From IMG/VR virus record IMGVR_UViG_3300020045_001854, positions 1 through 31,464 of that record: a DNA stretch of 31,464 bases, one strand, 5' to 3'. Origin of the DNA: a virus. Taxonomy: Duplodnaviria; Caudoviricetes. Both the position numbers and the translations under genes were made by a program. Below are positions 20,734 to 31,464 of the stretch, piece by piece (the first letter of the stretch is position 1; the number at the start of each line of letters is the position of its first letter). A model generated the notes under the pieces. It was not told the origin of the DNA. It saw only the letters and a list, made by a program, of their open reading frames with translations, and did no database searches.

Positions 20734-23037
20734 ATGAGCAGTCAAGCAGGTTTAAGTCCTAAAGGCCCCAATAACTATGTTGGACCAAATGTTTATCTCC
20801 CTTCCATTGTTTCTAGAAATCGAGAGCCTTTAGGTTCAGATTATCGTCAACCTGAAACAGGAAAGCTATATCCTGTAGGCTCATACTGGATTATTTCTAT
20901 TGATCCTACTACAGGAACGCAAGGGGATCTTTGGTATCTTTCTAAGATAGTGGCTAACGTAGCTTACTGGATTCAACTAAGTTCTGGGGGTCCAGGTACT
21001 CTTCTTGATGTTATTGTACAAGCAGTGACGGCTCCTGGGGTTAATCCTGTTACTCCTGTAGCTGGGGACATTACCTTCCAAGGAGCTGTAGTTGCTAACC
21101 ATTCCGTACCTGTAGAAACAAGAAGTCGTGCTCTTCATGTGATGAACCTTGAAGTTCAATACGCAACATCTGCTGCTGCAACCGATGGAACTAAGAGCGG
21201 ACTGGCGCATTTCAATAGTGCTCAGTTTACTGTAGATTCTAGTGGTTTTGTCTCCACAAGTGGAACAGGGGTTGGAAAGACAATCACTGGAGATACTGGT
21301 GGTGCTCTTTCTCCTACTGCTGGTAACTGGAACATCATTGGACAAGATGGTATCACTACACATGGGGCAGTATCTACTCTTACGATTACTCCTAGAGGTG
21401 CTGGAGTGGCTAACATGTTTCTGGGCCAAGGAGCTGGAAATCTTACACTTTCAGGAAGTGGAAACGTGTCTTATGGCGCTGATACATGCCCAAATATAAC
21501 TACTGGCGATGAGAATGTTTGTATAGGATTCAATGCTGGTAATGACATTACTACTGGGGATTCAAACATATGCATGGGTAACGATGCAGGAATGTCAATC
21601 ACTACTGGTCTTAATAACGTTGCTATTGGCGCAGGTGCTCTTAGAACTGCAATAGGTACTAATGAAAATACAGCAGTTGGTACAAATGCCTTATCTCTAT
21701 CCACTGGAACCGCATGTGTGGCTGTAGGAGCAGCAGCAGCCGCAAACGCTTCAGCTGGTAATGGTACAACCGCAATAGGATGGAATGCATTATCAAACTC
21801 TACAGGAGCTACAAATACTGCTGTTGGATTTAACTCATTGAGTGATGTAACTAGCGGCGTAAATAATACTGGCATAGGTGAAAGTTCTGGCACAGGATTA
21901 TTAACAGGTAGTTATAACATATTTATCGGCAGTACGTCCGGTATGAATTACAACGGAGCTGAAAGTAGCAATATACTTATAAATAACGCTGGTGTTGTTG
22001 GTGAATCCCATGTAATGCGTTTAGGTATACAAGGCTCTGGCAATGGTGGAATTATCAATACATTTGTTGCTGGTATTGTAGGTATAACGGTATCTAATGC
22101 TGTTCCTGTGATGATCGACTCTACTACTGGTCAACTTGGTGTTGGAGTAGGAACTTCTACATTAGTTACCACATATGAACTCGCCGATAGTCCGGGTACA
22201 TGGACCAAAAATGCTAATACAAAATTTGTTGAAGTTATCATGTGGGGAGGCGGTGCTGGTGGTGGTTCTGGAAGAAAAGGAGTCACAACAGCAGCGGGGG
22301 GCGGAGCCGGAGGAAGTGGTGCCGGAAACGTGTGGATGAGAGGTCCAGCGTCATTCTTTGGTGCATCTCAAAACTTTATCGTTGGGGCTGGAGGTGCTGG
22401 AGCTGCGGCACAGACCACAGACAACACTGACGGGATTATTGGTTCTGATGGAACTGCATCTGTTTTTGGAATTCTTTCTACTGCTTCATCCTTAGCAGGT
22501 AATGGTGGAACCGATACTCTAGCAAGCGGAGGTCAATCTGTTAATAACACTGGAGTCGTGGTTACTTTAAGAGCTGGCGAAGGTGGAATAGGAGCAAACG
22601 TAAACGGAGGAGTTTCCGTTGGATCAGGAGGAACTGCTCAAGACTATGGTTATTATGGAACTACTGGCGGGGGTGGCGGGGGTGGATCAGATGTTGCTGT
22701 AGAGAGACCAGGTGGCGATGCGGGAGGTCTTACCAATGTAGATAGCACTGCTAATCTTATTGCTGGATCTGCTGGTGGTTTGGAATCAACAGGTATCAAT
22801 GGTGCCAACGCAGTTCAACCTAGCGGTCAAGCTGCCTTTTTAGGTGGATTCGGGGGAGGTGGCGGTGGTGGATATTCTGTTGGTGCAATGGGAGCTACCA
22901 CAGGAGGCAGAGGGGGAAATGGAGCTATTCCTGGTGGAGGCGGCGGAGGTGGTGGTGGGGGCCTTACAGCTGTAGCTAATAGCGGAGCCGGAGGAAATGG
23001 AGCCAACGGTAGAATCATTGTGATTGAATACCTGTAG
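20734..23037 (+). CDS. Tail fibre protein with NTAVG-type beta-roll repeats and Gly-rich C-terminal domain
   Basis: NVAIGAGAL/NTAVGTNAL/NTAVGFNSL repeats; GGGAGGGSG..GANGRIIVIEY C-terminal domain. Confidence 0.8.
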   Translation: MSSQAGLSPKGPNNYVGPNVYLPSIVSRNREPLGSDYRQPETGKLYPVGSYWIISIDPTTGTQGDLWYLSKIVANVAYWIQLSSGGPGTLLDVIVQAVTAPGVNPVTPVAGDITFQGAVVANHSVPVETRSRALHVMNLEVQYATSAAATDGTKSGLAHFNSAQFTVDSSGFVSTSGTGVGKTITGDTGGALSPTAGNWNIIGQDGITTHGAVSTLTITPRGAGVANMFLGQGAGNLTLSGSGNVSYGADTCPNITTGDENVCIGFNAGNDITTGDSNICMGNDAGMSITTGLNNVAIGAGALRTAIGTNENTAVGTNALSLSTGTACVAVGAAAAANASAGNGTTAIGWNALSNSTGATNTAVGFNSLSDVTSGVNNTGIGESSGTGLLTGSYNIFIGSTSGMNYNGAESSNILINNAGVVGESHVMRLGIQGSGNGGIINTFVAGIVGITVSNAVPVMIDSTTGQLGVGVGTSTLVTTYELADSPGTWTKNANTKFVEVIMWGGGAGGGSGRKGVTTAAGGGAGGSGAGNVWMRGPASFFGASQNFIVGAGGAGAAAQTTDNTDGIIGSDGTASVFGILSTASSLAGNGGTDTLASGGQSVNNTGVVVTLRAGEGGIGANVNGGVSVGSGGTAQDYGYYGTTGGGGGGGSDVAVERPGGDAGGLTNVDSTANLIAGSAGGLESTGINGANAVQPSGQAAFLGGFGGGGGGGYSVGAMGATTGGRGGNGAIPGGGGGGGGGGLTAVANSGAGGNGANGRIIVIEYL

Positions 23038-23050
23038 GCTCCCTAATAGA

Positions 23051-23218
23051 TTACTTCTTTTTCTTTCCCGCTTGAGCCATCTTTTCCATCTTCTCTTTTC
23101 CGTACTTTTTCATTCCTACTGCCGCTGCTACTGCTGCGGGGTTCGAAGCACCTGACTTTGCTGCACTCTTCTCCACTGCTGCAAATCTCGCTCCTGAGCC
23201 TAATTTTGCTTTTGCCAT
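23051..23218 (-). CDS. Small basic phage protein, 55 aa (not in ORF track)
   Basis: AAGGAG RBS; MAKAKLGSGARFAAVEKSAAKSGASNPAAVAAAVGMKKYGKEKMEKMAQAGKKKK. Confidence 0.8.
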   Translation of the reverse strand: MAKAKLGSGARFAAVEKSAAKSGASNPAAVAAAVGMKKYGKEKMEKMAQAGKKKK

Positions 23219-23252
23219 AATATTCACTCCTTAAATTTATATAACACATTCT

Positions 23253-23414
23253 CTACACTTTGCTTTTATACTGACTCATACATCTTCTTATAACTTCTTT
23301 CTTGCCTTTCTTATTAACCTTTCCTTCTTGGAAAATCCTACATAGCCAAGAAGATTCAGCTGCTAACTCTCTGTTAAACTTGTTGTTTTCTTTTTGATTT
23401 TGTGTTAATTTCAT
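23253..23414 (-). CDS. Small basic hypothetical protein, 53 aa (not in ORF track)
   Basis: AAGGA RBS; MKLTQNQKENNKFNRELAAESSWLCRIF...SKV fills the gap in the operon. Confidence 0.55.
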   Translation of the reverse strand: MKLTQNQKENNKFNRELAAESSWLCRIFQEGKVNKKGKKEVIRRCMSQYKSKV

Positions 23415-23424
23415 ACATTCCTTA

Positions 23425-23652
23425 TTATTTTGGCAAGACTTGTACTGGAACTTCTAGACTTGTTTTTATAGTGTTGGTAGCAGCTTCATCTACTACATCG
23501 CTCGCTGTTCCCTCTGTGTGAACCATCGTTATGGTTGATGTACAGGATGGCAACAGAGATAACATAAAGATCAACACTGATAAAGTGACTAGAACCAACA
23601 GTAAACACATCCAGATACCTGGCTTCTTTTCATCATTCTTCTTATTTTCCAT
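23425..23652 (-). CDS. Probable lipoprotein, 75 aa
   Basis: Basic N-terminus, hydrophobic stretch, lipobox-like LPSC. Confidence 0.65.
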   Translation of the reverse strand: MENKKNDEKKPGIWMCLLLVLVTLSVLIFMLSLLPSCTSTITMVHTEGTASDVVDEAATNTIKTSLEVPVQVLPK

Positions 23653-24349
23653 TCTCTTTCTCCTCTTCTTTAACTATTTTTCTCTTGTTCTTCCATGAAT
23701 TAAAATTTTCAATGATAGATTCTTTTTCAAGAAGTTTCTTTACGCATTCTGATTGGGTTAGCTTGAATTTTTCCATCACAAGTTTGATGTATTCCCATAC
23801 GAGACCTTTGTCTTCTTTTTCAAATCTAGCCAATAGTCTTGTAAGGTTTGCTAGATCTTCGGCAGCTTGTGAGTCATCATCTTTAGGCTCTAACTGAGGC
23901 TCAATTGCACCTTTCTTCTTCTGTTGATCATACTTGCCTCTTCCGGATGCTGTTTCTCCGTCATCATCTTCGGAGACTAGGCCGAGCAATGTAGCTATAG
24001 AATATCTACGCATATATGTTACCGCGGCTCCTAGACCTTGACTGTCCAGCTTTGGATTTAATATCGGTAGATATGATTTCAACCATTGACCGCTCTCGGG
24101 ATGGATCAATGTTGCTACAATCATAGGCTCAGAAAAACTTCCATTTCCTGCTTGCACTAAGATCAATCCATTCTCAATCAGATGCTCTTCTGATGCGTCG
24201 ATATAGGCGTTCAAAGAAGCATAGTTGGACTTATGAAAAGGATTCTTGGAATCCTTCTTCACTGTTCCTATCTTTTGCTTTGCCTTCATAAGCTTAGCCA
24301 ATACGATATCGCATTTTGTACTCATCTCTGGCTTCAAATTCTCTGTCAT
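23642..24349 (-). CDS. erf: ERF-family ssDNA annealing protein
   Basis: KDSKNPFHKSNYASL, HPESGQW, QGLGAAVTYMRRYSI..EDDDGE motifs. Confidence 0.92.
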   Translation of the reverse strand: MTENLKPEMSTKCDIVLAKLMKAKQKIGTVKKDSKNPFHKSNYASLNAYIDASEEHLIENGLILVQAGNGSFSEPMIVATLIHPESGQWLKSYLPILNPKLDSQGLGAAVTYMRRYSIATLLGLVSEDDDGETASGRGKYDQQKKKGAIEPQLEPKDDDSQAAEDLANLTRLLARFEKEDKGLVWEYIKLVMEKFKLTQSECVKKLLEKESIIENFNSWKNKRKIVKEEEKENGK

Positions 24350-24561
24350 CGGTATCCTCTGTAAATTGGGTTATTAGCCAGCTCTTGAGCCCAGGCTGCC
24401 TCATCTTTCCTCTCGTAATCTCTTATATCGTCCCCATAATCCCCTTGTGTTGGAACGTAGTTTCCAGGCGATTTTTTCTTTGGGGTACTTTCTTTTGGTT
24501 TTAATTGGCTTTCTCTGAATTTTTCTAGTCGTAGTTGCATAGAAGGGCTTAGATCGCTCAT
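24346..24561 (-). CDS. Hypothetical protein, 71 aa
   Basis: AGGAG RBS, ATGA overlap with erf. Confidence 0.7.
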   Translation of the reverse strand: MSDLSPSMQLRLEKFRESQLKPKESTPKKKSPGNYVPTQGDYGDDIRDYERKDEAAWAQELANNPIYRGYR

Positions 24562-24570
24562 TGGTTACTC

Positions 24571-25107
24571 CTATTGGAAAAAGTGGGCCCAAACGCGGTA
24601 GATGGTCAAAAAAAAACCATCATCGACAGGATACTCATGTATCTTGGCTTCTTTTCCGTTTTTGTTAAGATGCAAGAAATAGATCTTTCGTATGTCATGG
24701 CCTGCTTTGCGCGCTAGATATGCATATGCGCATCCTTGTGCTTGCCACGTCTTAGAAGGACGAGCAGATGTCTTGAGATCTAATACAGCAAGACCATCTG
24801 GAGTGCGTAATATTAGATCAACTTGTCCTGTAATCTGTAGTTCATCATCCCAGAAACGCTGTTCCATCATCACTACATCATGACCAAGCGCCCACCATTT
24901 CTTAAAAGATTCAACGTATCCACGCGTTTCATCATCAACTCCGATTTCACCAAGACCTTCAATGATCGCTTCACATATCTGATGAACTTTTGTACCTCTA
25001 GATGCAGCGTGAGCAACTATTTCTGCATCTATCTTTTCTAAGCCAGAAAACGGATAAAGTATATTCGTAACTCTGGAATAGTTTTCTCTGGTTTTTTTGT
25101 CTTTCAC
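24571..25107 (-). CDS. PD-(D/E)XK exonuclease (RecB/Cas4-like), likely partner of ERF
   Basis: RGTKVH, E..F, GQVDL..LDLKT, QGCAY motifs. Confidence 0.85.
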   Translation of the reverse strand: MKDKKTRENYSRVTNILYPFSGLEKIDAEIVAHAASRGTKVHQICEAIIEGLGEIGVDDETRGYVESFKKWWALGHDVVMMEQRFWDDELQITGQVDLILRTPDGLAVLDLKTSARPSKTWQAQGCAYAYLARKAGHDIRKIYFLHLNKNGKEAKIHEYPVDDGFFLTIYRVWAHFFQ

Positions 25108-25263
25108 GCTTTAAAGTCTATCTGAGTTAGTTCACACATTTGGAGAAACATCTCCATATGTAAAAGTTTATTTTAACTCACCCTAAGTGATTTTGCTTTT
25201 TAGTGACAAGCAAAATTTTTAACCAAATGAAAAAACACGTGGGATGCTGTGTGCTTAAATTTG

Positions 25264-25291
25264 TTGTTTTAAAAAAACCATTTGATATGAT
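25264..25291 (+). promoter_or_regulatory. Candidate rightward promoter of the replication operon
   Basis: TTGTTT-N16-TATGAT with extended TG, in the divergent intergenic region. Confidence 0.35.
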
Positions 25292-25361
25292 ACGCGCACC
25301 ACAGCAGAAAGATGCTATGTATAGAAAAAAGATGACAAGAATAAATAAACACTTTACGGTG

Positions 25362-25398
25362 AAAACAAAAAGCTCCGAAGAATAAACCTCGGAGCCTT
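25362..25398 (-). terminator. Minus-strand intrinsic terminator
   Basis: AAGGCUCCGAGG-uuuauu-CUUCGGAGCUUUUUGUUUU; G-U pairs and U tail only on the minus strand. Confidence 0.7.
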
Positions 25399-25399
25399 A

Positions 25400-25539
25400 A
25401 GATTTCCTATGATGGATCTAAAGAAAAGCTAACACGATTCTTCCCGGAATCGAAAGCTATAGACAGCAACCACTGTCATTTATAGCATGTTATCCTAATT
25501 AGATCCATAGGAAATCTCCAAAGGAGATAAATGGATCTA
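25400..25539 (+). promoter_or_regulatory. Structured 5' leader with two alternative pairings over RBS/AUG
   Basis: 25499-25517 pairs with 25400-25421 (19 bp, 3-nt bulge), or 25500-25519 pairs with 25523-25539 (RBS and start codon). Confidence 0.6.
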
Positions 25540-25806
25540 TATGCCCTTACCTCACAAGAGGTTCTCGAACGCATTTCAAGACATTGTCCTCAAGCATTAA
25601 GTGCTTACTTACAATGCATAAATCGTGCAAACGCCGATGGGTCAATCTTCTTCAACAGGTCTCTTGTTGAGGTCGAAATGTCCGAACGGTGGACACCTTT
25701 CAAAAACCATATCAAAAAGTTAGCCTTAGAAAACCTTTTGCAATGGTCTCCATTCAATGGAGGCATTGCAGTCACCTTGGTACCCCATGATGATGACGAT
25801 GAGTGA
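25531..25806 (+). CDS. Hypothetical protein, 91 aa, possibly winged-helix
   Basis: AAGGAG RBS; first gene of the rightward operon. Confidence 0.75.
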   Translation: MDLYALTSQEVLERISRHCPQALSAYLQCINRANADGSIFFNRSLVEVEMSERWTPFKNHIKKLALENLLQWSPFNGGIAVTLVPHDDDDE

Positions 25807-26077
25807 TAAGGCGTGCTGTTGCGATGATTGTTTTGATTTGATCGCTAAAAGAAGTGCAGATTCAGCCAGACTTTGGCTGGATCTGTGCGATATCTATTAC
25901 AATTCTAATGCGATATTGATGATAGGCAACAGCGCACCAACTCCGTCTATTCGCACTCTAGAAACTCTTGGATTTATCCTGACTACTGAAACCCAGCACA
26001 TGACTTATGTTCGTGTGTTGGGTGAAGTATTCGACGGTGAAGAAAGATATTTCTGCGGAGGTAGATGCCATGAGTGA
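25799..26077 (+). CDS. Hypothetical Cys-containing protein
   Basis: Overlap-coupled start near 25799 (exact Met uncertain); CCCDDC motif. Confidence 0.65.
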   Translation: MSDKACCCDDCFDLIAKRSADSARLWLDLCDIYYNSNAILMIGNSAPTPSIRTLETLGFILTTETQHMTYVRVLGEVFDGEERYFCGGRCHE

Positions 26078-26372
26078 TCAGATGAAAACATGCAGTAGAT
26101 GTCATGAATCAAAGATCATCCATATGGATTTTTACATGTGCCAAGGAATCTACCGGAGCGAGTGCAAAAGATGCACTATAAAGAAAAACACCAGCTATCA
26201 AAAACGAACTCAACCATGGAAGTACAGGGTGGTTGACGAAGATAAGAAGCAATACCGAAAGGAGTACTACGCTGCAAACAAAGAAAAGTTCGCAGCGTAT
26301 CGTACTACCTTTAACGAAAAGAATCCTGAATATCACAAACTTTATGCGAGAAAGAAATATGACAAACAATGA
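26070..26372 (+). CDS. Zinc-binding protein (CxxC...CxxC), no HNH domain
   Basis: GGAGG RBS; KTCSRC..FY..SECKRC then basic helix. Confidence 0.7.
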   Translation: MSDQMKTCSRCHESKIIHMDFYMCQGIYRSECKRCTIKKNTSYQKRTQPWKYRVVDEDKKQYRKEYYAANKEKFAAYRTTFNEKNPEYHKLYARKKYDKQ

Positions 26373-27387
26373 CTCAGAAATAGAGAGAGATCACACAAAT
26401 CTCTCCCCACAAACGAAAGCGAATCCTGATCAAGTTATATCAGAGGTCGCAAACAATGTCAATCAAGACAAGATAAATACTGTATGTCGAGTAGTGCATA
26501 ACAGAGAAAATCCCTTTGTTCAACTTAATAAGAAAGCACTATGGGATACTAATCTTTCTTTGAAGGCTGTCGGATTATGGGCTCGCTGCCTATCTCGTCC
26601 AGATAACTGGACATTCTCTATTGCTGAACTTGTTAAGCACTGCAAAGAAGGAAGACGATCCATAGATGCAGCCATGAAAGAGCTTATAGATTCCGGTTAT
26701 GTTTGCCGAATCGAGTATCATGAAAAAGATACTCAAGGGAAGTTCGTTCCAGGCAGAGGAGGAGTTCAATATATCTTCTTCGAGTTTGCGGCGACTGAGG
26801 AAGAAAAGCAAGAACAACTAGACATATTCAAGAAAAGTTTCCAGCATTGCGGTTTCGGCGATAGCCGTTTCGGCAATAGCCGAAATGCACACCTACTAAT
26901 AAAGAGTACTAAAGAAACAGACTCTAAGGAAATAGAGAACTCCTCCTTAAAGGTTACAGCTGAAGATCAAGCGCCTAGCGGCGCCATGCCAGCTAAAGCT
27001 GGCGAGAAGAAGAAAGACTTCACTCCAGAAGTCATAGCTGTAGCTGCTGAGATGAATGCAATACTCAAGACTCATGAGCCTGACTATTCCCCTCCAGCGA
27101 ATCTCGCTCCGTTCCGAGCGCAGGTAGACTTCATGCTGCGGATAGACAAACGCGAAGCGCAGAAGATCTATGACGTCTTGAATTGGGCTCTCTCGGACTC
27201 CTTCTGGAGATCTCATCTATACAAGCCAAATCCGGCTAAATATCTCCGAGAGAAGTTTATGCAGCTGAAGGTGAAGATGGAAACTAAACCTCCAGAAAGA
27301 AAAATTGATCGTAAAGGATTTGCTCCATGTTCTGACGACGCAAAAGCTATAGAAGAAATGAAAGAAATGGGGAGAAGAGCACTATGA
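26359..27387 (+). CDS. Phage replication initiator (N-terminal HTH)
   Basis: LSLKAVGLW..LSRPDNW..MKELIDSGYV and C-terminal DSFW..PAKYLREKF; directly upstream of DnaC-like gene; start uncertain. Confidence 0.8.
   Translation: MTNNDSEIERDHTNLSPQTKANPDQVISEVANNVNQDKINTVCRVVHNRENPFVQLNKKALWDTNLSLKAVGLWARCLSRPDNWTFSIAELVKHCKEGRRSIDAAMKELIDSGYVCRIEYHEKDTQGKFVPGRGGVQYIFFEFAATEEEKQEQLDIFKKSFQHCGFGDSRFGNSRNAHLLIKSTKETDSKEIENSSLKVTAEDQAPSGAMPAKAGEKKKDFTPEVIAVAAEMNAILKTHEPDYSPPANLAPFRAQVDFMLRIDKREAQKIYDVLNWALSDSFWRSHLYKPNPAKYLREKFMQLKVKMETKPPERKIDRKGFAPCSDDAKAIEEMKEMGRRAL
26376..26428 (-). ncRNA. Candidate ~50-nt antisense RNA ending in a terminator-like hairpin
   Basis: Follows the promoter; 11-bp stem UGGGGAGAGAU/AUCUCUCUCUA (26409-26381) then UUUCU. 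Confidence 0.45.
26434..26462 (-). promoter_or_regulatory. Near-consensus antisense sigma70-type promoter
   Basis: TTGACA-N17-TATAAC with TG before the -10 box. Confidence 0.65.
26837..26885 (+). repeat. Three tandem 15-bp iteron-like repeats, candidate replication origin
   Basis: gtttccagcattgcg / gtttcggcgatagcc / gtttcggcaatagcc inside the initiator gene; dyad tttcggc-aata-gccgaaa. Confidence 0.5.
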
Positions 27388-28226
27388 AACTAATGTCATC
27401 AATATGTGATAAAGAATTAGTCCAAATTAACATCCCAGATAAAGAATATAGATGTGATTATATCTTTGGTCCTTGGGGTTATAGTAAATTAAATGAGACT
27501 ATAATCTCTACCAAACACAAATGCGAATATTGTGAAAAGTCTGAGCATTTCTGTCCCGTCATAGACCCTGCTGTCTCGGACGCTAGAGCATGGCTTTGTG
27601 CAAACCAGCTTTGCGTGGTCAACAGCGCAAAAAAAGGAGTCAAGGCTACCACCATACAGACCCCTACGCGACGAGCGCTAGAATGGCACGTATTTTGCGA
27701 ATTAAACACCATTGGCGATATCCATTATAACGTTCGGTTTGAATCCATCCAACAATCCGAAGGTAAGATTGAATATTTAAAGAAGTATGTCGTTAAACCT
27801 AATGAAATTCTTCTTATGCAAGGTGAGCCAGGTACTGGAAAGACTTACGCATCAATGGCTGTCTGTGAGAAATTTACGCGTACTAATACTTCATGTTTAT
27901 TCATTACTCAGAAGCAACTCTTTAACTCATGGCAAGAAACTTTCAAAGCCGGAAACTCTAGCAATATCGTTAATCAAGTGCTAACAGTTAAACTTCTTGT
28001 TATCGATGATTTTGGAATCAAAGATAACTCTGCTTCTTTCATGGATTTTTTCATGGAAATTATCAACACTCGCATGCAGTGGACAGATCGGGGCACTATC
28101 ATCACCACTAACCTGACCGATGAAGTGTTGGCTCAATTTTGTGGTCGAGCATTAACTGATCGTATCCTTACAGGACAACAATTTAAGTTTCCTCCTGGAA
28201 GTCGAAGAAAAAATCCGGTGTTATGA
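27384..28226 (+). CDS. DnaC/IstB-like AAA+ helicase loader
   Basis: Walker A GEPGTGKT, Walker B LLVIDD, TIITTN, DRI; Cys-rich N-terminus. Confidence 0.9.
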   Translation: MKLMSSICDKELVQINIPDKEYRCDYIFGPWGYSKLNETIISTKHKCEYCEKSEHFCPVIDPAVSDARAWLCANQLCVVNSAKKGVKATTIQTPTRRALEWHVFCELNTIGDIHYNVRFESIQQSEGKIEYLKKYVVKPNEILLMQGEPGTGKTYASMAVCEKFTRTNTSCLFITQKQLFNSWQETFKAGNSSNIVNQVLTVKLLVIDDFGIKDNSASFMDFFMEIINTRMQWTDRGTIITTNLTDEVLAQFCGRALTDRILTGQQFKFPPGSRRKNPVL

Positions 28227-28453
28227 TAAAAAACAAAGAATGCAAGATATGCAATAAGTCTTTCGAAATGAAGATGAAAACAGAAATGTACTGTCCTGGG
28301 TGTAGGGATTATAAGAATGTACACAAATCCAACCAGAATTGGTTAGAAAGAGTTAAGAAACCAAAAACAAAGAAAGGAAGAAGTTCCAATGAGATTGGAT
28401 ACTTGTTCTTTAAAAACAACAGCACAGTTAAAACCAATGTTTATAGAGGATAA
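28223..28453 (+). CDS. Small zinc-finger protein
   Basis: CKIC..F..YCPGC; ATGA overlap. Confidence 0.7.
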   Translation: MIKNKECKICNKSFEMKMKTEMYCPGCRDYKNVHKSNQNWLERVKKPKTKKGRSSNEIGYLFFKNNSTVKTNVYRG

Positions 28454-28456
28454 AAT

Positions 28457-28774
28457 ATGTCATCATTCAAATTTGTTAGCAGTGAAGCATTTCCTGAAGA
28501 TCAATACACAAAAGAAATCGTTTTCTTAGAGATAGATGCTCCTGCAAGAGTTGCTTTCATCCGAAAGACAGCTAAAAACGGAGGAAGCTTTTGGTCTGTT
28601 GCAAGTATAGGAGTTTCACAAAATGGAAAGAAAGAGTATTTCCCAAGTTATGCACAAGACAGCTCTTTCTTAGCCGGAGACATCAAAGACTTTCTAGATA
28701 AGAGAAAGTGGGAAACGCAGAAGACTCAAATACAACAAAAAGCTCCTGCACAAGACATACAGTTTCCATTCTGA
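28457..28774 (+). CDS. Possible ssDNA-binding protein (SpoVG-like core, PF tail)
   Basis: KNGGSFWSVAS..GKKEY core; Q-rich linker ending DIQFPF. Confidence 0.45.
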   Translation: MSSFKFVSSEAFPEDQYTKEIVFLEIDAPARVAFIRKTAKNGGSFWSVASIGVSQNGKKEYFPSYAQDSSFLAGDIKDFLDKRKWETQKTQIQQKAPAQDIQFPF

Positions 28775-29061
28775 TGGATGAGGAATTCAAAGAGCATATA
28801 CTTCGGAAGTATCACGAAGATGTCGAATGGCTAAAGAGATGTGTAAGCCCGGATGATATCTATGATTTTGCTGAGCAAGCATTGATAGCTGCTACATTCT
28901 TCTTATCTCGATGGGATGAGTGGGTAGATATCAATGAAGAAGCAGAAAATGATAGAGCTACGTCTGCATGGATAAGGAACATTCTCGGCATACGAATGAT
29001 GAGAGAGAATGGCTATGAAGGTCCCATAGAGTTTCGTTTTAATGAACCAGAGGAACTATGA
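28774..29061 (+). CDS. Acidic hypothetical protein
   Basis: TGATG coupling at 28772-28776. Confidence 0.7.
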   Translation: MDEEFKEHILRKYHEDVEWLKRCVSPDDIYDFAEQALIAATFFLSRWDEWVDINEEAENDRATSAWIRNILGIRMMRENGYEGPIEFRFNEPEEL

Positions 29062-29648
29062 AGATCATCATTCCAGGTATCCCTGTTCCTCAAGCTAGGA
29101 TGAAGCATTCAAACATACGAGGATTTGTAACAACTTACGATCCCAAGGCGAAAGAGAAAAAACTTATCAGGCATCTTCTTCAGTCTAACATTACAACTAA
29201 TGTATTCGAATTCCCTAGAATCTCATTCCTTTTTCATATGCCTATACCCAAAAGCATAAGAAAAAGGGATGTAGATCTTTATAACTCTGGTAAGCTAAAG
29301 CATGATAAGAAGCCTGATGTTGATAATCTCATAAAGCTTTATCTCGATTGCTTAGATGGCATCGTCATCCATGGAGATCAAAAGGTATCTCTTGGCCCTT
29401 GTATCAAGGTGTACCATCCAGAGCCAAAGACGGTTCTCTGGATCTCAGAAACGGATGCGGTGCTGAACCCTTGGGAATTGGACGGTGTATTCCTAGACGA
29501 GAAAGAATGCGATGTACCGTCATTTTCTGAACAGGATTTCCCTCACGGTTCGTATAACCTCTTTTCTCAAGTTCTCTCTCTATCTCTCCAAAAGTATAAC
29601 CCTGGGTGTATAGTTCCTTCATCAAATTCACCTGTTCTTCCTCTTTAG
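29058..29648 (+). CDS. rusA: RusA-family Holliday junction resolvase
   Basis: IPGIPVPQAR, KPDVDNLIKLYLDCLDGIVIHGDQKV motif. Confidence 0.9.
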   Translation: MKIIIPGIPVPQARMKHSNIRGFVTTYDPKAKEKKLIRHLLQSNITTNVFEFPRISFLFHMPIPKSIRKRDVDLYNSGKLKHDKKPDVDNLIKLYLDCLDGIVIHGDQKVSLGPCIKVYHPEPKTVLWISETDAVLNPWELDGVFLDEKECDVPSFSEQDFPHGSYNLFSQVLSLSLQKYNPGCIVPSSNSPVLPL

Positions 29649-30183
29649 AATCTGGAATTAAAAGATAAGGCTTTCCATATGATCGACAGTTTTCTCGATG
29701 TGTTTGCAGCTTTTCTTCATCGGTTTTATATCCATACCAACACGTTCCTACTTTATGCATCTGAGCTTGTTTACTTTTTAATCCCGCTTTTGTGTTATTG
29801 CTTATGGTATCTCTAGCCATCTCACCCATCATTGCGTAGATATGAATGAAGTTCTTGTCTACCTTTGGTTGGCCTAAAGAATGCAGAATCACTTTCTTAT
29901 TTGTTATCTGCTCTTCATAGATCTTCACTAACTCAGTTCCCGTACGAGCAATACGGGTTAGACAGAATACAACAAGATTGTCACCAGACTTTAGAAATTC
30001 CAACATAGCTTTAAGTACAGGTCTCTTATCCATCTTAAGTCTTGTTGAAGTAGGAGGCTCATTGAACTCTACGACTTCATCGCTTGGCTGTTTGATCTTC
30101 TCAATGTATTCTCTACACATGAATAGCTGACTCTCATCCAACTGCTGATTGCTTGAGACTCGACTGAATATTACGTATCTCAT
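29404..30183 (-). CDS. Serine recombinase (resolvase domain plus short recombinase domain)
   Basis: FSRVSS catalytic motif, RPVLKAML..SGDNLVV..RIAR, YGYK, ELEKRGYTNREG. Confidence 0.88.
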   Translation of the reverse strand: MRYVIFSRVSSNQQLDESQLFMCREYIEKIKQPSDEVVEFNEPPTSTRLKMDKRPVLKAMLEFLKSGDNLVVFCLTRIARTGTELVKIYEEQITNKKVILHSLGQPKVDKNFIHIYAMMGEMARDTISNNTKAGLKSKQAQMHKVGTCWYGYKTDEEKLQTHRENCRSYGKPYLLIPDSKEEEQVNLMKELYTQGYTFGEIERELEKRGYTNREGNPVQKMTVHRILSRLGIHRPIPKGSAPHPFLRSREPSLALDGTP

Positions 30184-30509
30184 TTCTCTACCTTGGTCTT
30201 CTTTGTAAGTTTTCTCGCTAATGTGATCTCTCTTTTCTTTAGCTTATCAATCATACTGTGTTCATTAAAATCATCAGGAACCAATTCTAATACAGAGGAC
30301 AGTTGTTCCATATACAATTTTATATCCCTTCTTAGATCCCATATTATAGTATTAGCCCTACAAGAAAGATCGTCTGGTAAGATACCAATCTCTACGGCTT
30401 TGATATGAAAACTTTCTAGTGTTTTAAGTGAAAGTATCCCCTCAAGAAGTGATTGTGCATAATCTTCAAGAGTCTTTAAACTTTTGCTGTCTACATACGT
30501 AAGATCCAC
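30180..30509 (-). CDS. Hypothetical helical protein, 109 aa
   Basis: ATGA overlap with the recombinase start. Confidence 0.65.
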   Translation of the reverse strand: MDLTYVDSKSLKTLEDYAQSLLEGILSLKTLESFHIKAVEIGILPDDLSCRANTIIWDLRRDIKLYMEQLSSVLELVPDDFNEHSMIDKLKKREITLARKLTKKTKVEK

Positions 30510-30675
30510 TTTTTGCCCTCAGTTCTTTTAGTTCTTTGATATACAAACGAGAAGGAATAACCTTTCCATTTTCCCATCTATTAACACTCACAACAGTTGT
30601 TCCTAATAGTTGTGCAAACTTCTCTTGCGATACGCATAACTTCTTTCTTAACGCCGTTATCTCATCAGGAGTCAT
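30466..30675 (-). CDS. XRE-family helix-turn-helix regulator
   Basis: ITALRKKLCVSQEKFAQLLGTTVVSVNRWENGKVIP. Confidence 0.9.
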   Translation of the reverse strand: MTPDEITALRKKLCVSQEKFAQLLGTTVVSVNRWENGKVIPSRLYIKELKELRAKSGSYVCRQQKFKDS

Positions 30676-30986
30676 CTTCCCTCACTTAGTTTTTTGAAGA
30701 GCTGTGAAGCTCTAGTCCTTCTGAATTCTGTATCTATCTTTGGCCTTTCTCCTTCACTGTTGAAGCAATTGCCAAGATCTATCAATGACCATTTGCATAA
30801 TTCAATAGTCTGGCCTTTGATGAGGCAATCAATCTCATTCTCATCATTGGGGTTTAATGCAAAGATGTAACATGCCCAATCAGATAGTGGGTCTATGAAC
30901 TTTATCTCTGCATAACAATTCAAAGCATCAGCCTTCTCACCCCAATTGCCTTTCAACACCTCTTTAATCTTATCACTCAAATGCAT
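30672..30986 (-). CDS. DUF2958-like protein
   Basis: IKFIDPLSDWACY..P..CLIKG..ELCKWSLIDL..ID..F resembles the DUF2958 pattern as I recall it. Confidence 0.5.
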   Translation of the reverse strand: MHLSDKIKEVLKGNWGEKADALNCYAEIKFIDPLSDWACYIFALNPNDENEIDCLIKGQTIELCKWSLIDLGNCFNSEGERPKIDTEFRRTRASQLFKKLSEGR

Positions 30987-31350
30987 GATAATCCAAATCC
31001 CCTCAAAACAGCTTGTGTTTTATTATTAGCATACATATGTTTGCGAAAGCCCATGCATTCTCTATTTTTCCAACAGAGAGGGTTAAACACCCTCTCAATT
31101 CTTCATCCATTAACTTGTATACAACACTATATCATGAGATATGTATTATATTCAACAGCTTTCTTTTCACAGAGGAGAAAATCACTTTTCAAATATTGAT
31201 TTGACACAAAATCACCATATATGGCATGATAACGTATAATCAGTCTTGAACACAGCCATCGGTCTGCTCAAGACCCATGGTTAATATTAAAGGGGCGTTG
31301 CCCCTTAAACCCCAATCTCGCAAAGCTCGATGAGATGAAGTTAGGAATTA

Positions 31351-31464
31351 ATGCCTTATCCATATCAAGTCAAAAAACTAGACGAATATTTTGAAACCAA
31401 GCAGTCAAAAATGAATTTTAAAACCATTGAAACAAACCCTGATATGAGCAACAAAAAAAGATTA
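31351..31464 (+). CDS. Possible 5' fragment of a gene running off the window
   Basis: AGGA then ATG, open to the end (MPYPYQVKKLDEYF...). Confidence 0.3.
   Translation, partial: MPYPYQVKKLDEYFETKQSKMNFKTIETNPDMSNKKRL

What the first reader, a model, noticed from the sequence alone, without database searches (positions are those of the whole stretch)
25362..25539. Candidate antisense-RNA-operated translational switch at the head of the replication operon
Seen: segment 25499-25519 has two exclusive partners. ON fold: 25499-25517 pairs with 25400-25421 (19 bp, 3-nt bulge), closing a junction with inner helices taaca/tgtta, cgattc/gaatcg and gctata-gacag/ctgtc-tatagc, leaving RBS and AUG free. 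OFF fold: tagatccat (25500-08) pairs with atggatcta (25531-39, containing the start codon) and atctcc (25514-19) pairs with ggagat (25523-28, the RBS). The 9-mer atggatcta occurs both in the upstream arm (25412-20) and at the start codon. The minus strand has an extended -10 (TGcTATAAA, 25487-25479, poor -35) and a clear terminator (25398-25362) with no recognisable gene between. Inference: a ~110-nt antisense RNA would cover the upstream arm and force the OFF fold, giving RNA-based immunity or replication control. Known analogues are P1 c4, P4 CI and plasmid antisense replication control, but I do not recognise this sequence as any of them.
Basis: partly seen in the sequence, partly recalled or inferred. 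Interest (0 to 1): 0.8.

Follow-up and report, generated by a model that had tools for sequence, protein, structure and literature searches.

The report
Phage antisense RNA translation switch
In a family of uncultured 40-kb phages, the leader of the DNA-replication operon carries a conserved opposite-strand promoter and terminator plus two mutually exclusive pairings, so a ~105-base antisense RNA likely refolds the mRNA to hide the first gene's ribosome-binding site, a plasmid-style control sitting where lambda-like phages keep a repressor gene.

Summary
The pairings are present as described and the architecture is conserved. Of 71 non-redundant leaders of the downstream 91-aa gene, 55 carry the full unit: a minus-strand promoter, a minus-strand terminator, and a long ON helix whose 3' arm is also an anti-RBS. 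41 of those 55 also show a plus-strand promoter at the terminator's tail. A TAnnnT -10 lies 17-18 nt from the antisense -35 in 58 of 59 anchored leaders. ON-helix arms are complementary within each phage although their sequences are near random between phages. Blocking the antisense-covered part raises RBS opening cost in 54 of 55 (median 7 kcal/mol). An ON/OFF contrast above 3 kcal/mol occurs in 50 of 55 leaders and 4 of 151 control genes. The mechanism matches pSK41 RNAI translational attenuation more than P1 c4 or P4 CI. No Rfam match; no CI-type peptidase domain in 19 genomes. Not shown: any transcript, formal covariation of the OFF helix, host, lifestyle, or a role in immunity. New variant of a known kind.

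The parts
25332..25360 (+). Predicted promoter of the replication operon (-35 ATGACA 25332-37, 17 nt, -10 TACGGT 25355-60); mRNA start predicted near 25366
   Evidence: Pattern found upstream of the terminator hairpin in 41 of 55 leaders, against a mean of 0.6 (max 3) in 200 shuffles; the pattern was written after seeing the sequences
25361..25398 (-). Intrinsic terminator of the predicted antisense RNA (hairpin 25398-25369, U tail to about 25361)
   Evidence: Hairpin of -12 kcal/mol or better after an A-run in 55 of 59 anchored leaders. Non-WC oppositions read on the plus strand are A-C 35, G-U 3, so it is a minus-strand hairpin
25362..25472 (-). Predicted antisense RNA, about 107-111 nt, complementary to the first ~105 nt of the mRNA; non-coding
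   Evidence: Ends inferred from promoter and terminator (family median 110 nt, range 58-190). Fold z -2.5. 0 of 55 hold an SD-led ORF of 15 codons or more. No transcript seen
25400..25421 (+). 5' arm of the ON helix (anti-anti-RBS); lies inside the antisense-covered region
25430..25492 (+). Inner junction: helices 25430-34/25488-92, 25435-40/25447-52, 25456-66/25473-86; the loop of the first hairpin is the candidate kissing site
   Evidence: Loop motif enrichment in the family is modest
25479..25507 (-). Predicted antisense promoter (-35 TGGATC 25507-02, 17 nt, -10 TATAAA 25484-79 with TG extension)
   Evidence: TAnnnT at spacer 17 or 18 in 58 of 59 anchored leaders; at most 7 of 59 for any pair of offsets that includes neither
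25499..25519 (+). Switch segment: 3' arm of the ON helix and anti-RBS/anti-AUG of the OFF fold; also holds the antisense -35
25522..25539 (+). SD (AGGAG 25522-26) and start codon 25531, paired in the OFF fold
25531..25806 (+). Controlled gene orf91, predicted winged-helix protein, first gene of the replication operon; its stop overlaps the next start by 8 nt
   Evidence: 316 homologues. AlphaFold pLDDT 77. Best folds CodY C-terminal and ArsR/MarR wHTH, E 0.005 at best. HTH_36 look-alikes. Overlap of 4-17 nt in 50 of 51 scorable loci
26233..28226 (+). O/DnaD-like replication initiator and DnaC-like loader, downstream in the same run of overlapping genes
   Evidence: PHROGs matches; ORF overlaps
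23642..25107 (-). Divergent exonuclease and Erf recombination genes; no repressor gene lies between them and orf91

Best explanation
The region is a conserved pair of convergent promoter motifs with a terminator, predicted to make a ~105-nt antisense RNA that would pair with the 5' leader of the replication-operon mRNA and likely switch off translation of its first gene by freeing an anti-RBS segment. Shown in sequence: both promoter motifs, the terminator, both pairings, and their conservation across the phage family. Predicted by folding: without the antisense RNA the nascent leader locks the anti-RBS in the long ON helix before the RBS is made; with the first ~105 nt occupied, the anti-RBS pairs over the SD and start codon. 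Inferred: that both RNAs are made; that binding starts loop to loop; that the block passes to the initiator and DnaC genes through overlapping stops and starts or through polarity; and that the purpose is to hold replication down in a carried state (copy control and/or exclusion of like phages), in a position where lambda-like phages use a CI protein.
For: Antisense promoter: -10 in 58 of 59 at spacer 17-18. Terminator in 55 of 59, with minus-strand wobble bias. Plus promoter in 41 of 55 against 0.6 in shuffles. ON helix: median 22 WC pairs; beats all 30 shuffles in 44 of 55; includes the anti-RBS core in 47 of 55. Own-partner duplex -22.5 against -9.8 kcal/mol for other phages' partners, although the variable part of the 3' arm is only 31% identical between phages. 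Isolated G-U 24 against A-C 11 in the outer helix favours the mRNA strand (p 0.04). Blocking the covered region raises RBS opening energy in 54 of 55, median 4.9 to 11.9. Controls: 53 of 55 truncated leaders cost 9 kcal/mol or more to open against 20 of 151 other genes in the same loci; ON/OFF contrast above 3 in 50 of 55 against 4 of 151. OFF stability exceeds the shuffle mean in 52 of 55 even with the -35 hexamer held in place (median 12.5 against 8.1). It uses the AUG register in 23, the SD register in 28 and neither in 4. All 7 homologues without Asp at codon 2 keep it through the SD register. ON pairing dominates when the RNA is cut just before the start codon in 46 of 55. Three relatives without the unit show no ON/OFF contrast. 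No S24 peptidase (CI-type) domain in 19 genomes.
Against: No transcript was observed. At fixed register only 1 of 14 OFF-helix columns covaries, and on a tree it reduces to 1 independent pair on starred branches. RNAalifold on a 16-sequence MAFFT alignment finds only the 5-bp OFF core with no compensatory change. The OFF core could be partly a by-product of a -35 hexamer facing Met-Asp codons; with the hexamer fixed, the real fold beats the best of 12 shuffles in only 27 of 55. At equilibrium with the start region included, the free mRNA prefers ON in only 33 of 55 and OFF in 16, so the model needs co-transcriptional folding in those. The window's own antisense -10 is non-canonical. The unit is absent in 3 and incomplete by my patterns in 13 of 71 leaders. 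A small HTH_3 gene exists elsewhere in 16 of 19 genomes, so protein control is not excluded. All energies are model predictions at 37 C on related sequences.
Confidence: 0.75

Rival explanations
1. The antisense RNA is real but acts mainly by another route: RNase III cutting of the ~100-bp duplex, or interference between the two convergent promoters. The OFF hairpin would be secondary.
For: Full complementarity over ~105 nt and convergent promoters about 120 bp apart. Formal covariation in the OFF helix is weak.
Against: It does not explain why RBS occlusion is kept through different registers, why it exceeds control genes, or why a long ON helix sequesters exactly the anti-RBS.
Confidence: 0.12
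2. The minus-strand RNA is an independent small RNA with other targets, or the attenuated leader of the leftward exonuclease/Erf operon, and the plus-strand folds mirror it.
For: It has its own promoter and terminator and points towards the recombination genes. The whole region folds slightly better on the minus strand in 38 of 55.
Against: The 3' arm of the ON helix lies upstream of the predicted antisense start, so the helix cannot form in that RNA, and its wobbles favour the plus strand. The RNA body has near-background identity between phages, which is unlike a trans-acting RNA with fixed targets. In 29 of 55 loci a plus-strand gene lies between the terminator and the leftward operon. The minus-strand advantage includes the terminator hairpin.
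Confidence: 0.05
3. No antisense RNA is made. The leader is a cis switch flipped by a protein or by folding kinetics, and the minus-strand motifs are incidental.
For: No RNA data. The window's -10 is atypical. A possible RNA-binding (SpoVG-like, unconfirmed) gene sits just upstream in many relatives.
Against: A correctly spaced -10 in 58 of 59 and a strand-specific terminator in 55 of 59 have no role in a cis-only switch.
Confidence: 0.04
4. pT181/pIP501-type transcription attenuation: antisense binding induces a terminator before orf91.
For: Same layout of antisense RNA, pre-emptor arm and induced hairpin over the RBS (PMC5703833, passages).
Against: No U tract follows the OFF hairpin: at most 5 T in the 8 nt from +9, and 3 or fewer in 47 of 55. 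The hairpin includes the start codon and has large internal loops.
Confidence: 0.03

Closest known systems
pSK41 (staphylococcal RepA_N plasmid) RNAI control of rep translation (PMC5703833, passages)
   Same: Counter-transcribed small RNA (~83 nt there, ~105 nt here) complementary to the mRNA leader away from the RBS; binding is proposed to induce a stem-loop that sequesters the RBS without terminating transcription; the target operon is replication initiation.
   Different: Here it is on a tailed phage with terminase, portal and capsid genes. The controlled gene is a 91-aa wHTH ahead of the initiator, not the initiator. The antisense -35 lies inside the anti-RBS. The RNA's 3' end is predicted to coincide with the mRNA 5' end. 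No sequence homology was shown or tested directly.
pT181 RNAI and pIP501 RNAIII attenuation (PMC5703833, passages)
   Same: An upstream 'pre-emptor' arm competes with a hairpin that contains the RBS; the antisense RNA removes the pre-emptor.
   Different: Their induced hairpin is a terminator; here no U tract follows it.
Phage P1/P7 C4 antisense RNA (PMC8198154, passages; Rfam C4)
   Same: Phage small RNA that represses an early operon after transcription.
   Different: C4 lies in the c4-icd-ant operon, controls an antirepressor and works beside the C1 protein repressor (passages). That it is cut from the same-strand transcript and pairs through short patches is recalled. Here the RNA is on the opposite strand with its own promoter. 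No Rfam match.
Satellite phage P4 CI RNA (recalled; no paper read)
   Same: RNA-based control of a replication operon without a CI protein.
   Different: CI RNA is processed from the sense transcript and causes premature termination (recalled); here a cis-antisense RNA and a translational fold are predicted.
ColE1 RNA I / RNA II (recalled; no paper read)
   Same: Antisense RNA of about 108 nt covering the very 5' end of its target; some antisense loops here read UUGGCG, CUGGUAA or UUGGAA, like those recalled for kissing systems.
   Different: The target here is an mRNA leader that runs into an SD and ORF, not a replication primer, and the phage encodes an initiator and loader.

Membership tests
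pSK41-type antisense translational attenuation | Counter-transcript unit (promoter and terminator) opposite the mRNA leader | tested here: met
   (motifs only)
pSK41-type antisense translational attenuation | Antisense RNA does not cover the RBS | tested here: met
   Predicted +1 lies 51-63 nt upstream of the start in the leaders printed (window -59); coordinates for all 55
pSK41-type antisense translational attenuation | Binding induces an RBS-sequestering stem-loop | tested here: met
   In silico only:
pSK41-type antisense translational attenuation | Controlled gene is a RepA_N plasmid initiator on a staphylococcal plasmid | tested here: not met
   First gene is a 91-aa wHTH on a phage. The downstream initiator resembles staphylococcal plasmid initiators only weakly (26% over half its length)
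pSK41-type antisense translational attenuation | RNA detected and repression shown | not testable with these tools
   Needs RNA data or a reporter
pT181/pIP501 transcription attenuation | Induced hairpin is an intrinsic terminator with a U tract | tested here: not met
P1/P7 C4 (Rfam C4) | Match to an Rfam C4 model | tested here: not met
   0 matches in the window at gathering; none near the leaders of 12 relatives at E <= 1 other than one sub-threshold Hrs1 hit
P1/P7 C4 (Rfam C4) | RNA encoded on the same strand as its icd-ant target | tested here: not met
   Promoter and terminator are on the opposite strand; orf91 has no PHROG or Pfam match to Icd or Ant
P4 CI immunity | Sense-strand processed RNA pairing with seqA/seqC to end transcription (recalled) | tested here: not met
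   Opposite-strand unit; no terminator after the OFF fold
R1 CopA/tap leader-peptide control | Conserved leader peptide coupled to the controlled gene (recalled) | tested here: not met
   SD-led mini-ORF in only 11 of 55 leaders, not in the window. orf91 itself may act like a coupled leader gene
Kissing-loop antisense systems | YUNR U-turn in a recognition loop (recalled) | tested here: inconclusive
   31 of 47 antisense loops against 22.0 expected; sense 16 against 17.2; absent in the window's loop
Lambdoid CI/Cro switch | HTH plus S24 repressor between divergent early operons | tested here: not met
   No such ORF in 25107-25531; PF00717 in 0 of 19 genomes

The most novel reading that the evidence does not exclude
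This is the main lysogeny and immunity switch of a widespread, uncultured family of ~40-kb tailed phages, possibly of environmental Chlamydiae. A plasmid-type antisense RNA replaces CI, holds the phage as a non-integrated low-copy element, and defines immunity groups by sequence alone, since almost every phage's RNA can pair only with its own leader (9 of 2970 non-cognate pairs reach half the cognate duplex energy, 8 of them involving one truncated unit).
Probability: 0.3. Interest if true: 0.82.

Novelty: new variant of a known kind. Interest (0 to 1): 0.64.

Why it matters
Antisense-induced RBS sequestration is described for plasmids such as pSK41. Here it is predicted at the divergent early-control position of a tailed-phage family that lacks a CI-type repressor, in 55 versions with the same shape and nearly unrelated sequence. 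That makes it a ready test of RNA-only control of phage replication or immunity, and a natural set of likely orthogonal RNA switches. One hexamer serves as antisense -35, ON-helix arm and anti-RBS, a compact design. If the single Rhabdochlamydia label holds, it also points to tailed phages of environmental Chlamydiae; my two literature searches on that listed no such description.

Tried and rejected
No RNA holder listed for 21500-31464; this says nothing about expression. Laying DNA run X1 gave only short low-depth pieces, of no use. Rfam: nothing at gathering in the window, three sub-threshold hits in 12 loci. MAFFT plus RNAalifold on 16 leaders did not bring the ON arms into register, so alignment-based covariation failed and I used own-versus-other partner duplexes instead. 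The 'inner helix' line is invalid (the duplex routine returned large positive values) and was dropped; the identity summary was also not used. The fixed-register covariation at codon 3 (34 of 55 against 21 shuffled) follows clades and did not survive the tree test. Faster-than-neutral change of the leader was not shown: median identity 0.49 (background 0.44) against 0.33 at four-fold sites in 171 pairs. Whole-region plus-versus-minus folding is confounded by the terminator. No iteron array was found in the initiator gene. orf91 has no match in 50,697 GenBank phages. Host could not be fixed: one 39-kb contig labelled Ca. Rhabdochlamydia, one 10-kb contig in a Bacteroidales bin. In the viral structured-RNA survey PMC10690425, six IMG sample numbers were not found in 3 of 6 text supplements; 3 were not searched and 3 more were too large, so prior listing there is not excluded. 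No similar stretch among this scan's earlier notes by sequence or place.

Full report
Context. The window is one virus record of 31,464 bases, estimated 79% complete. It encodes terminase, portal and major head protein, a leftward exonuclease and Erf, and a rightward run with an O/DnaD-like initiator, DnaC-like loader and RusA. The finding lies in the 424-base gap between these divergent operons, where lambda-like phages keep CI and Cro; no such ORF is there. The first rightward gene, orf91 (25531-25806), has 316 homologues. It folds as a winged helix with moderate confidence (pLDDT 77; best match CodY C-terminal domain, E 0.005).

Observation. The two folds are close in energy. A transcript starting at 25362-25400 folds ON; one lacking the upstream arm folds OFF at about 0.99. 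No Rfam family matches.

Homologue set. Four scans gave 111 loci. One had no orf91 hit and 6 had under 200 bases upstream, leaving 104 plus the window; removing duplicates left 74, then 71. 59 of 71 have [GA]TC[CT]A 19-33 bases before the start, mostly at -28 to -31, and 55 of those have a strong terminator. Folding tests used these 55; folding was not used to select them. Of the other 16, 8 have a minus-strand promoter pattern, 5 have only a terminator hairpin, and 3 (L029, L093, L102) have a short gap with neither and show no ON/OFF contrast.

Antisense unit. Read on the minus strand, the anchor is a -35 hexamer (TGGACA, TGGACT, TAGACA). Because I anchored on it, only the -10 is an independent test: TAnnnT lies 17 or 18 bases on in 58 of 59, against at most 7 for pairs of offsets that include neither. 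The exception is the window, with TATAAA and a TG extension. The terminator hairpin shows A-C 35 and G-U 3 when read on the plus strand, so it is built for the minus strand. Predicted RNA length is 107 nt in the window, median 110. None of 55 holds an SD-led ORF of 15 codons.

mRNA start. A plus-strand promoter pattern (T[TAG]GAC[AT], 17-18, TAnnnT; written after seeing the data) lies about 41 bases before the hairpin in 41 of 55, against 0.6 in shuffles. In the window it is 25332-37 / 25355-60. The mRNA would start in the A-run that is the antisense RNA's U tail, so the RNA would cover the first ~105 bases of the mRNA and stop about 60 bases short of the start codon.

ON helix. It has a median of 22 WC pairs, beats all 30 shuffles in 44 of 55, contains the anti-RBS core in 47 of 55, and usually begins right after the terminator. 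The variable part of its 3' arm is 31% identical between phages, yet each arm pairs with its own upstream segment at -22.5 kcal/mol against -9.8 for others, and the own partner is best of 55 in 33 cases. Isolated wobbles in the outer helix are G-U 24 and A-C 11 (48 leaders), which favours the mRNA strand. Alignment-based covariation failed because MAFFT could not register the arms.

OFF fold. Forcing the antisense-covered bases unpaired raises the cost of opening -12..+6 in 54 of 55 leaders (median 4.9 to 11.9; window 3.8 to 14.0). Blocking upstream sequence could do this for any gene, so I scored 151 other SD-led genes in the same loci. Their local opening cost is 5.2 against 11.9, and a contrast above 3 kcal/mol occurs in 4 of 151 against 50 of 55. 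The main worry is coincidence, since a -35 hexamer happens to be complementary to Met-Asp codons. With the hexamer held in place and the rest shuffled, the real fold still exceeds the shuffle mean in 52 of 55, though the best of 12 shuffles in only 27. The partner is the AUG region in 23 leaders and the SD in 28, and all 7 homologues without Asp at codon 2 keep 12.5-17.0 kcal/mol through the SD. Window and L001 differ at one base of the switch segment with matching changes in both the upstream arm and the synonymous position of codon 2. Formal covariation is weak: 1 of 14 columns, not independent on a tree. ON pairing dominates in 46 of 55 when the RNA ends just before the start codon, but in 33 of 55 at full equilibrium, with OFF in 16. 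No U tract follows the OFF hairpin.

Recognition loops. The strongest inner hairpin carries YUNR on the antisense side in 31 of 47 (22.0 expected) and on the sense side in 16 (17.2 expected); the window's loop lacks it. This is a hint of kissing-loop initiation, no more. Non-cognate RNA-leader duplexes reach a median 16% of the cognate energy, so cross-talk between phages is predicted to be rare. Accelerated change was not shown.

Purpose. The next gene's start overlaps the orf91 stop in 50 of 51 scorable loci, and the initiator and DnaC genes follow in an overlapping run, so a block at orf91 could pass downstream; this is inference. In 19 genomes or records (16 at least 90% complete): S24 peptidase 0, tyrosine integrase 1, ParA 2, short serine recombinase 16, small HTH_3 16. 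The longest contig among the 120 listed orf91 homologues is 41.6 kb, so none was seen inside a host chromosome. That fits a non-integrated carried state but does not show it. The host is unresolved: one record is labelled Ca. Rhabdochlamydia and one contig sits in a Bacteroidales bin.

Comparison. From passages of PMC5703833: pSK41 RNAI, about 83 nt, is counter-transcribed, complementary to the rep leader about 100 nt upstream of the initiation region, and proposed to induce an RBS-sequestering stem-loop without termination; pT181 uses the same logic to form a terminator. The phage unit works like pSK41 but is not a member: different replicon, different controlled gene. P1 C4 (passages of PMC8198154) controls an antirepressor beside a protein repressor. 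BTP1 STnc6030 (passages of PMC7067206) shows that a phage antisense RNA can exclude superinfection. PMC7157519 (abstract and outline) reports RNA-based origins in extrachromosomal mycobacterial prophages. P4 CI, ColE1 RNA I, R1 CopA and the YUNR rule are recalled. Ten literature searches listed no description of this element; the library omits most subscription papers, and supplements of PMC10690425 were only partly searchable. Earlier unchecked notes of this scan report similar switches in other phages and a plasmid, so the class may be common.

Verdict. Its role in immunity or copy control, and the host, remain open. New variant of a known kind; interest 0.64.

Noticed in passing
L112:18143-18523 (-) and 29 of 55 loci, just upstream of the leader; window 25203-25385: A ~120-aa plus-strand ORF ends at or inside the start of the leader in 29 of 55 loci (9 loci have under 600 bases upstream). 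Structure look-alikes include SpoVG clusters, below the naming bar; no Pfam hit. The window holds only a weak 60-aa remnant (E 0.01).
   Followed up: partly
window 25854-25888: A 16-bp hairpin (-24.7 kcal/mol) inside the second gene of the operon; much stronger than at the same place in the other 50 loci scored (best -18.5), so not conserved.
   Followed up: partly
window 25181-25210 (-): Candidate leftward promoter for the exonuclease/Erf operon (TTGTCA, 18 nt, TAGGGT), back to back with the rightward one; seen by eye, also in L001.
   Followed up: no
window 29404-30986 (-): Leftward block of a short serine recombinase (259 aa), a 109-aa ORF, a 69-aa HTH_3 protein and a 104-aa ORF, kept in order in G002; could be a resolvase plus a regulator or toxin-antitoxin pair.
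   Followed up: partly
G002:C1:7592-8368 and G005:C1:25382-25750: ParA-like genes in 2 of 19 related phage genomes, a hint of plasmid-like maintenance in some members.
   Followed up: partly
L112:4748-6968 (-): G002 carries two adjacent ORFs that look by eye like an RNA ligase and an RtcB-type ligase; not tested.
   Followed up: no
L029, L093, L102 upstream of orf91: Three divergent relatives lack the antisense unit and have only a short AT-rich gap between the exonuclease and orf91; the complete genome of L029 also lacks the small HTH_3 gene.
   Followed up: partly
L021:3751-3940: The leader holds several tandem copies of a TGGACA-containing unit, that is, repeated copies of the ON-helix 5' arm.
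   Followed up: no
proteins P0109 and P0221: Homologues of orf91 and of the serine recombinase are labelled Ca. Rhabdochlamydia sp. on a 39-kb contig; if right, this is a tailed phage family of environmental Chlamydiae.
   Followed up: partly
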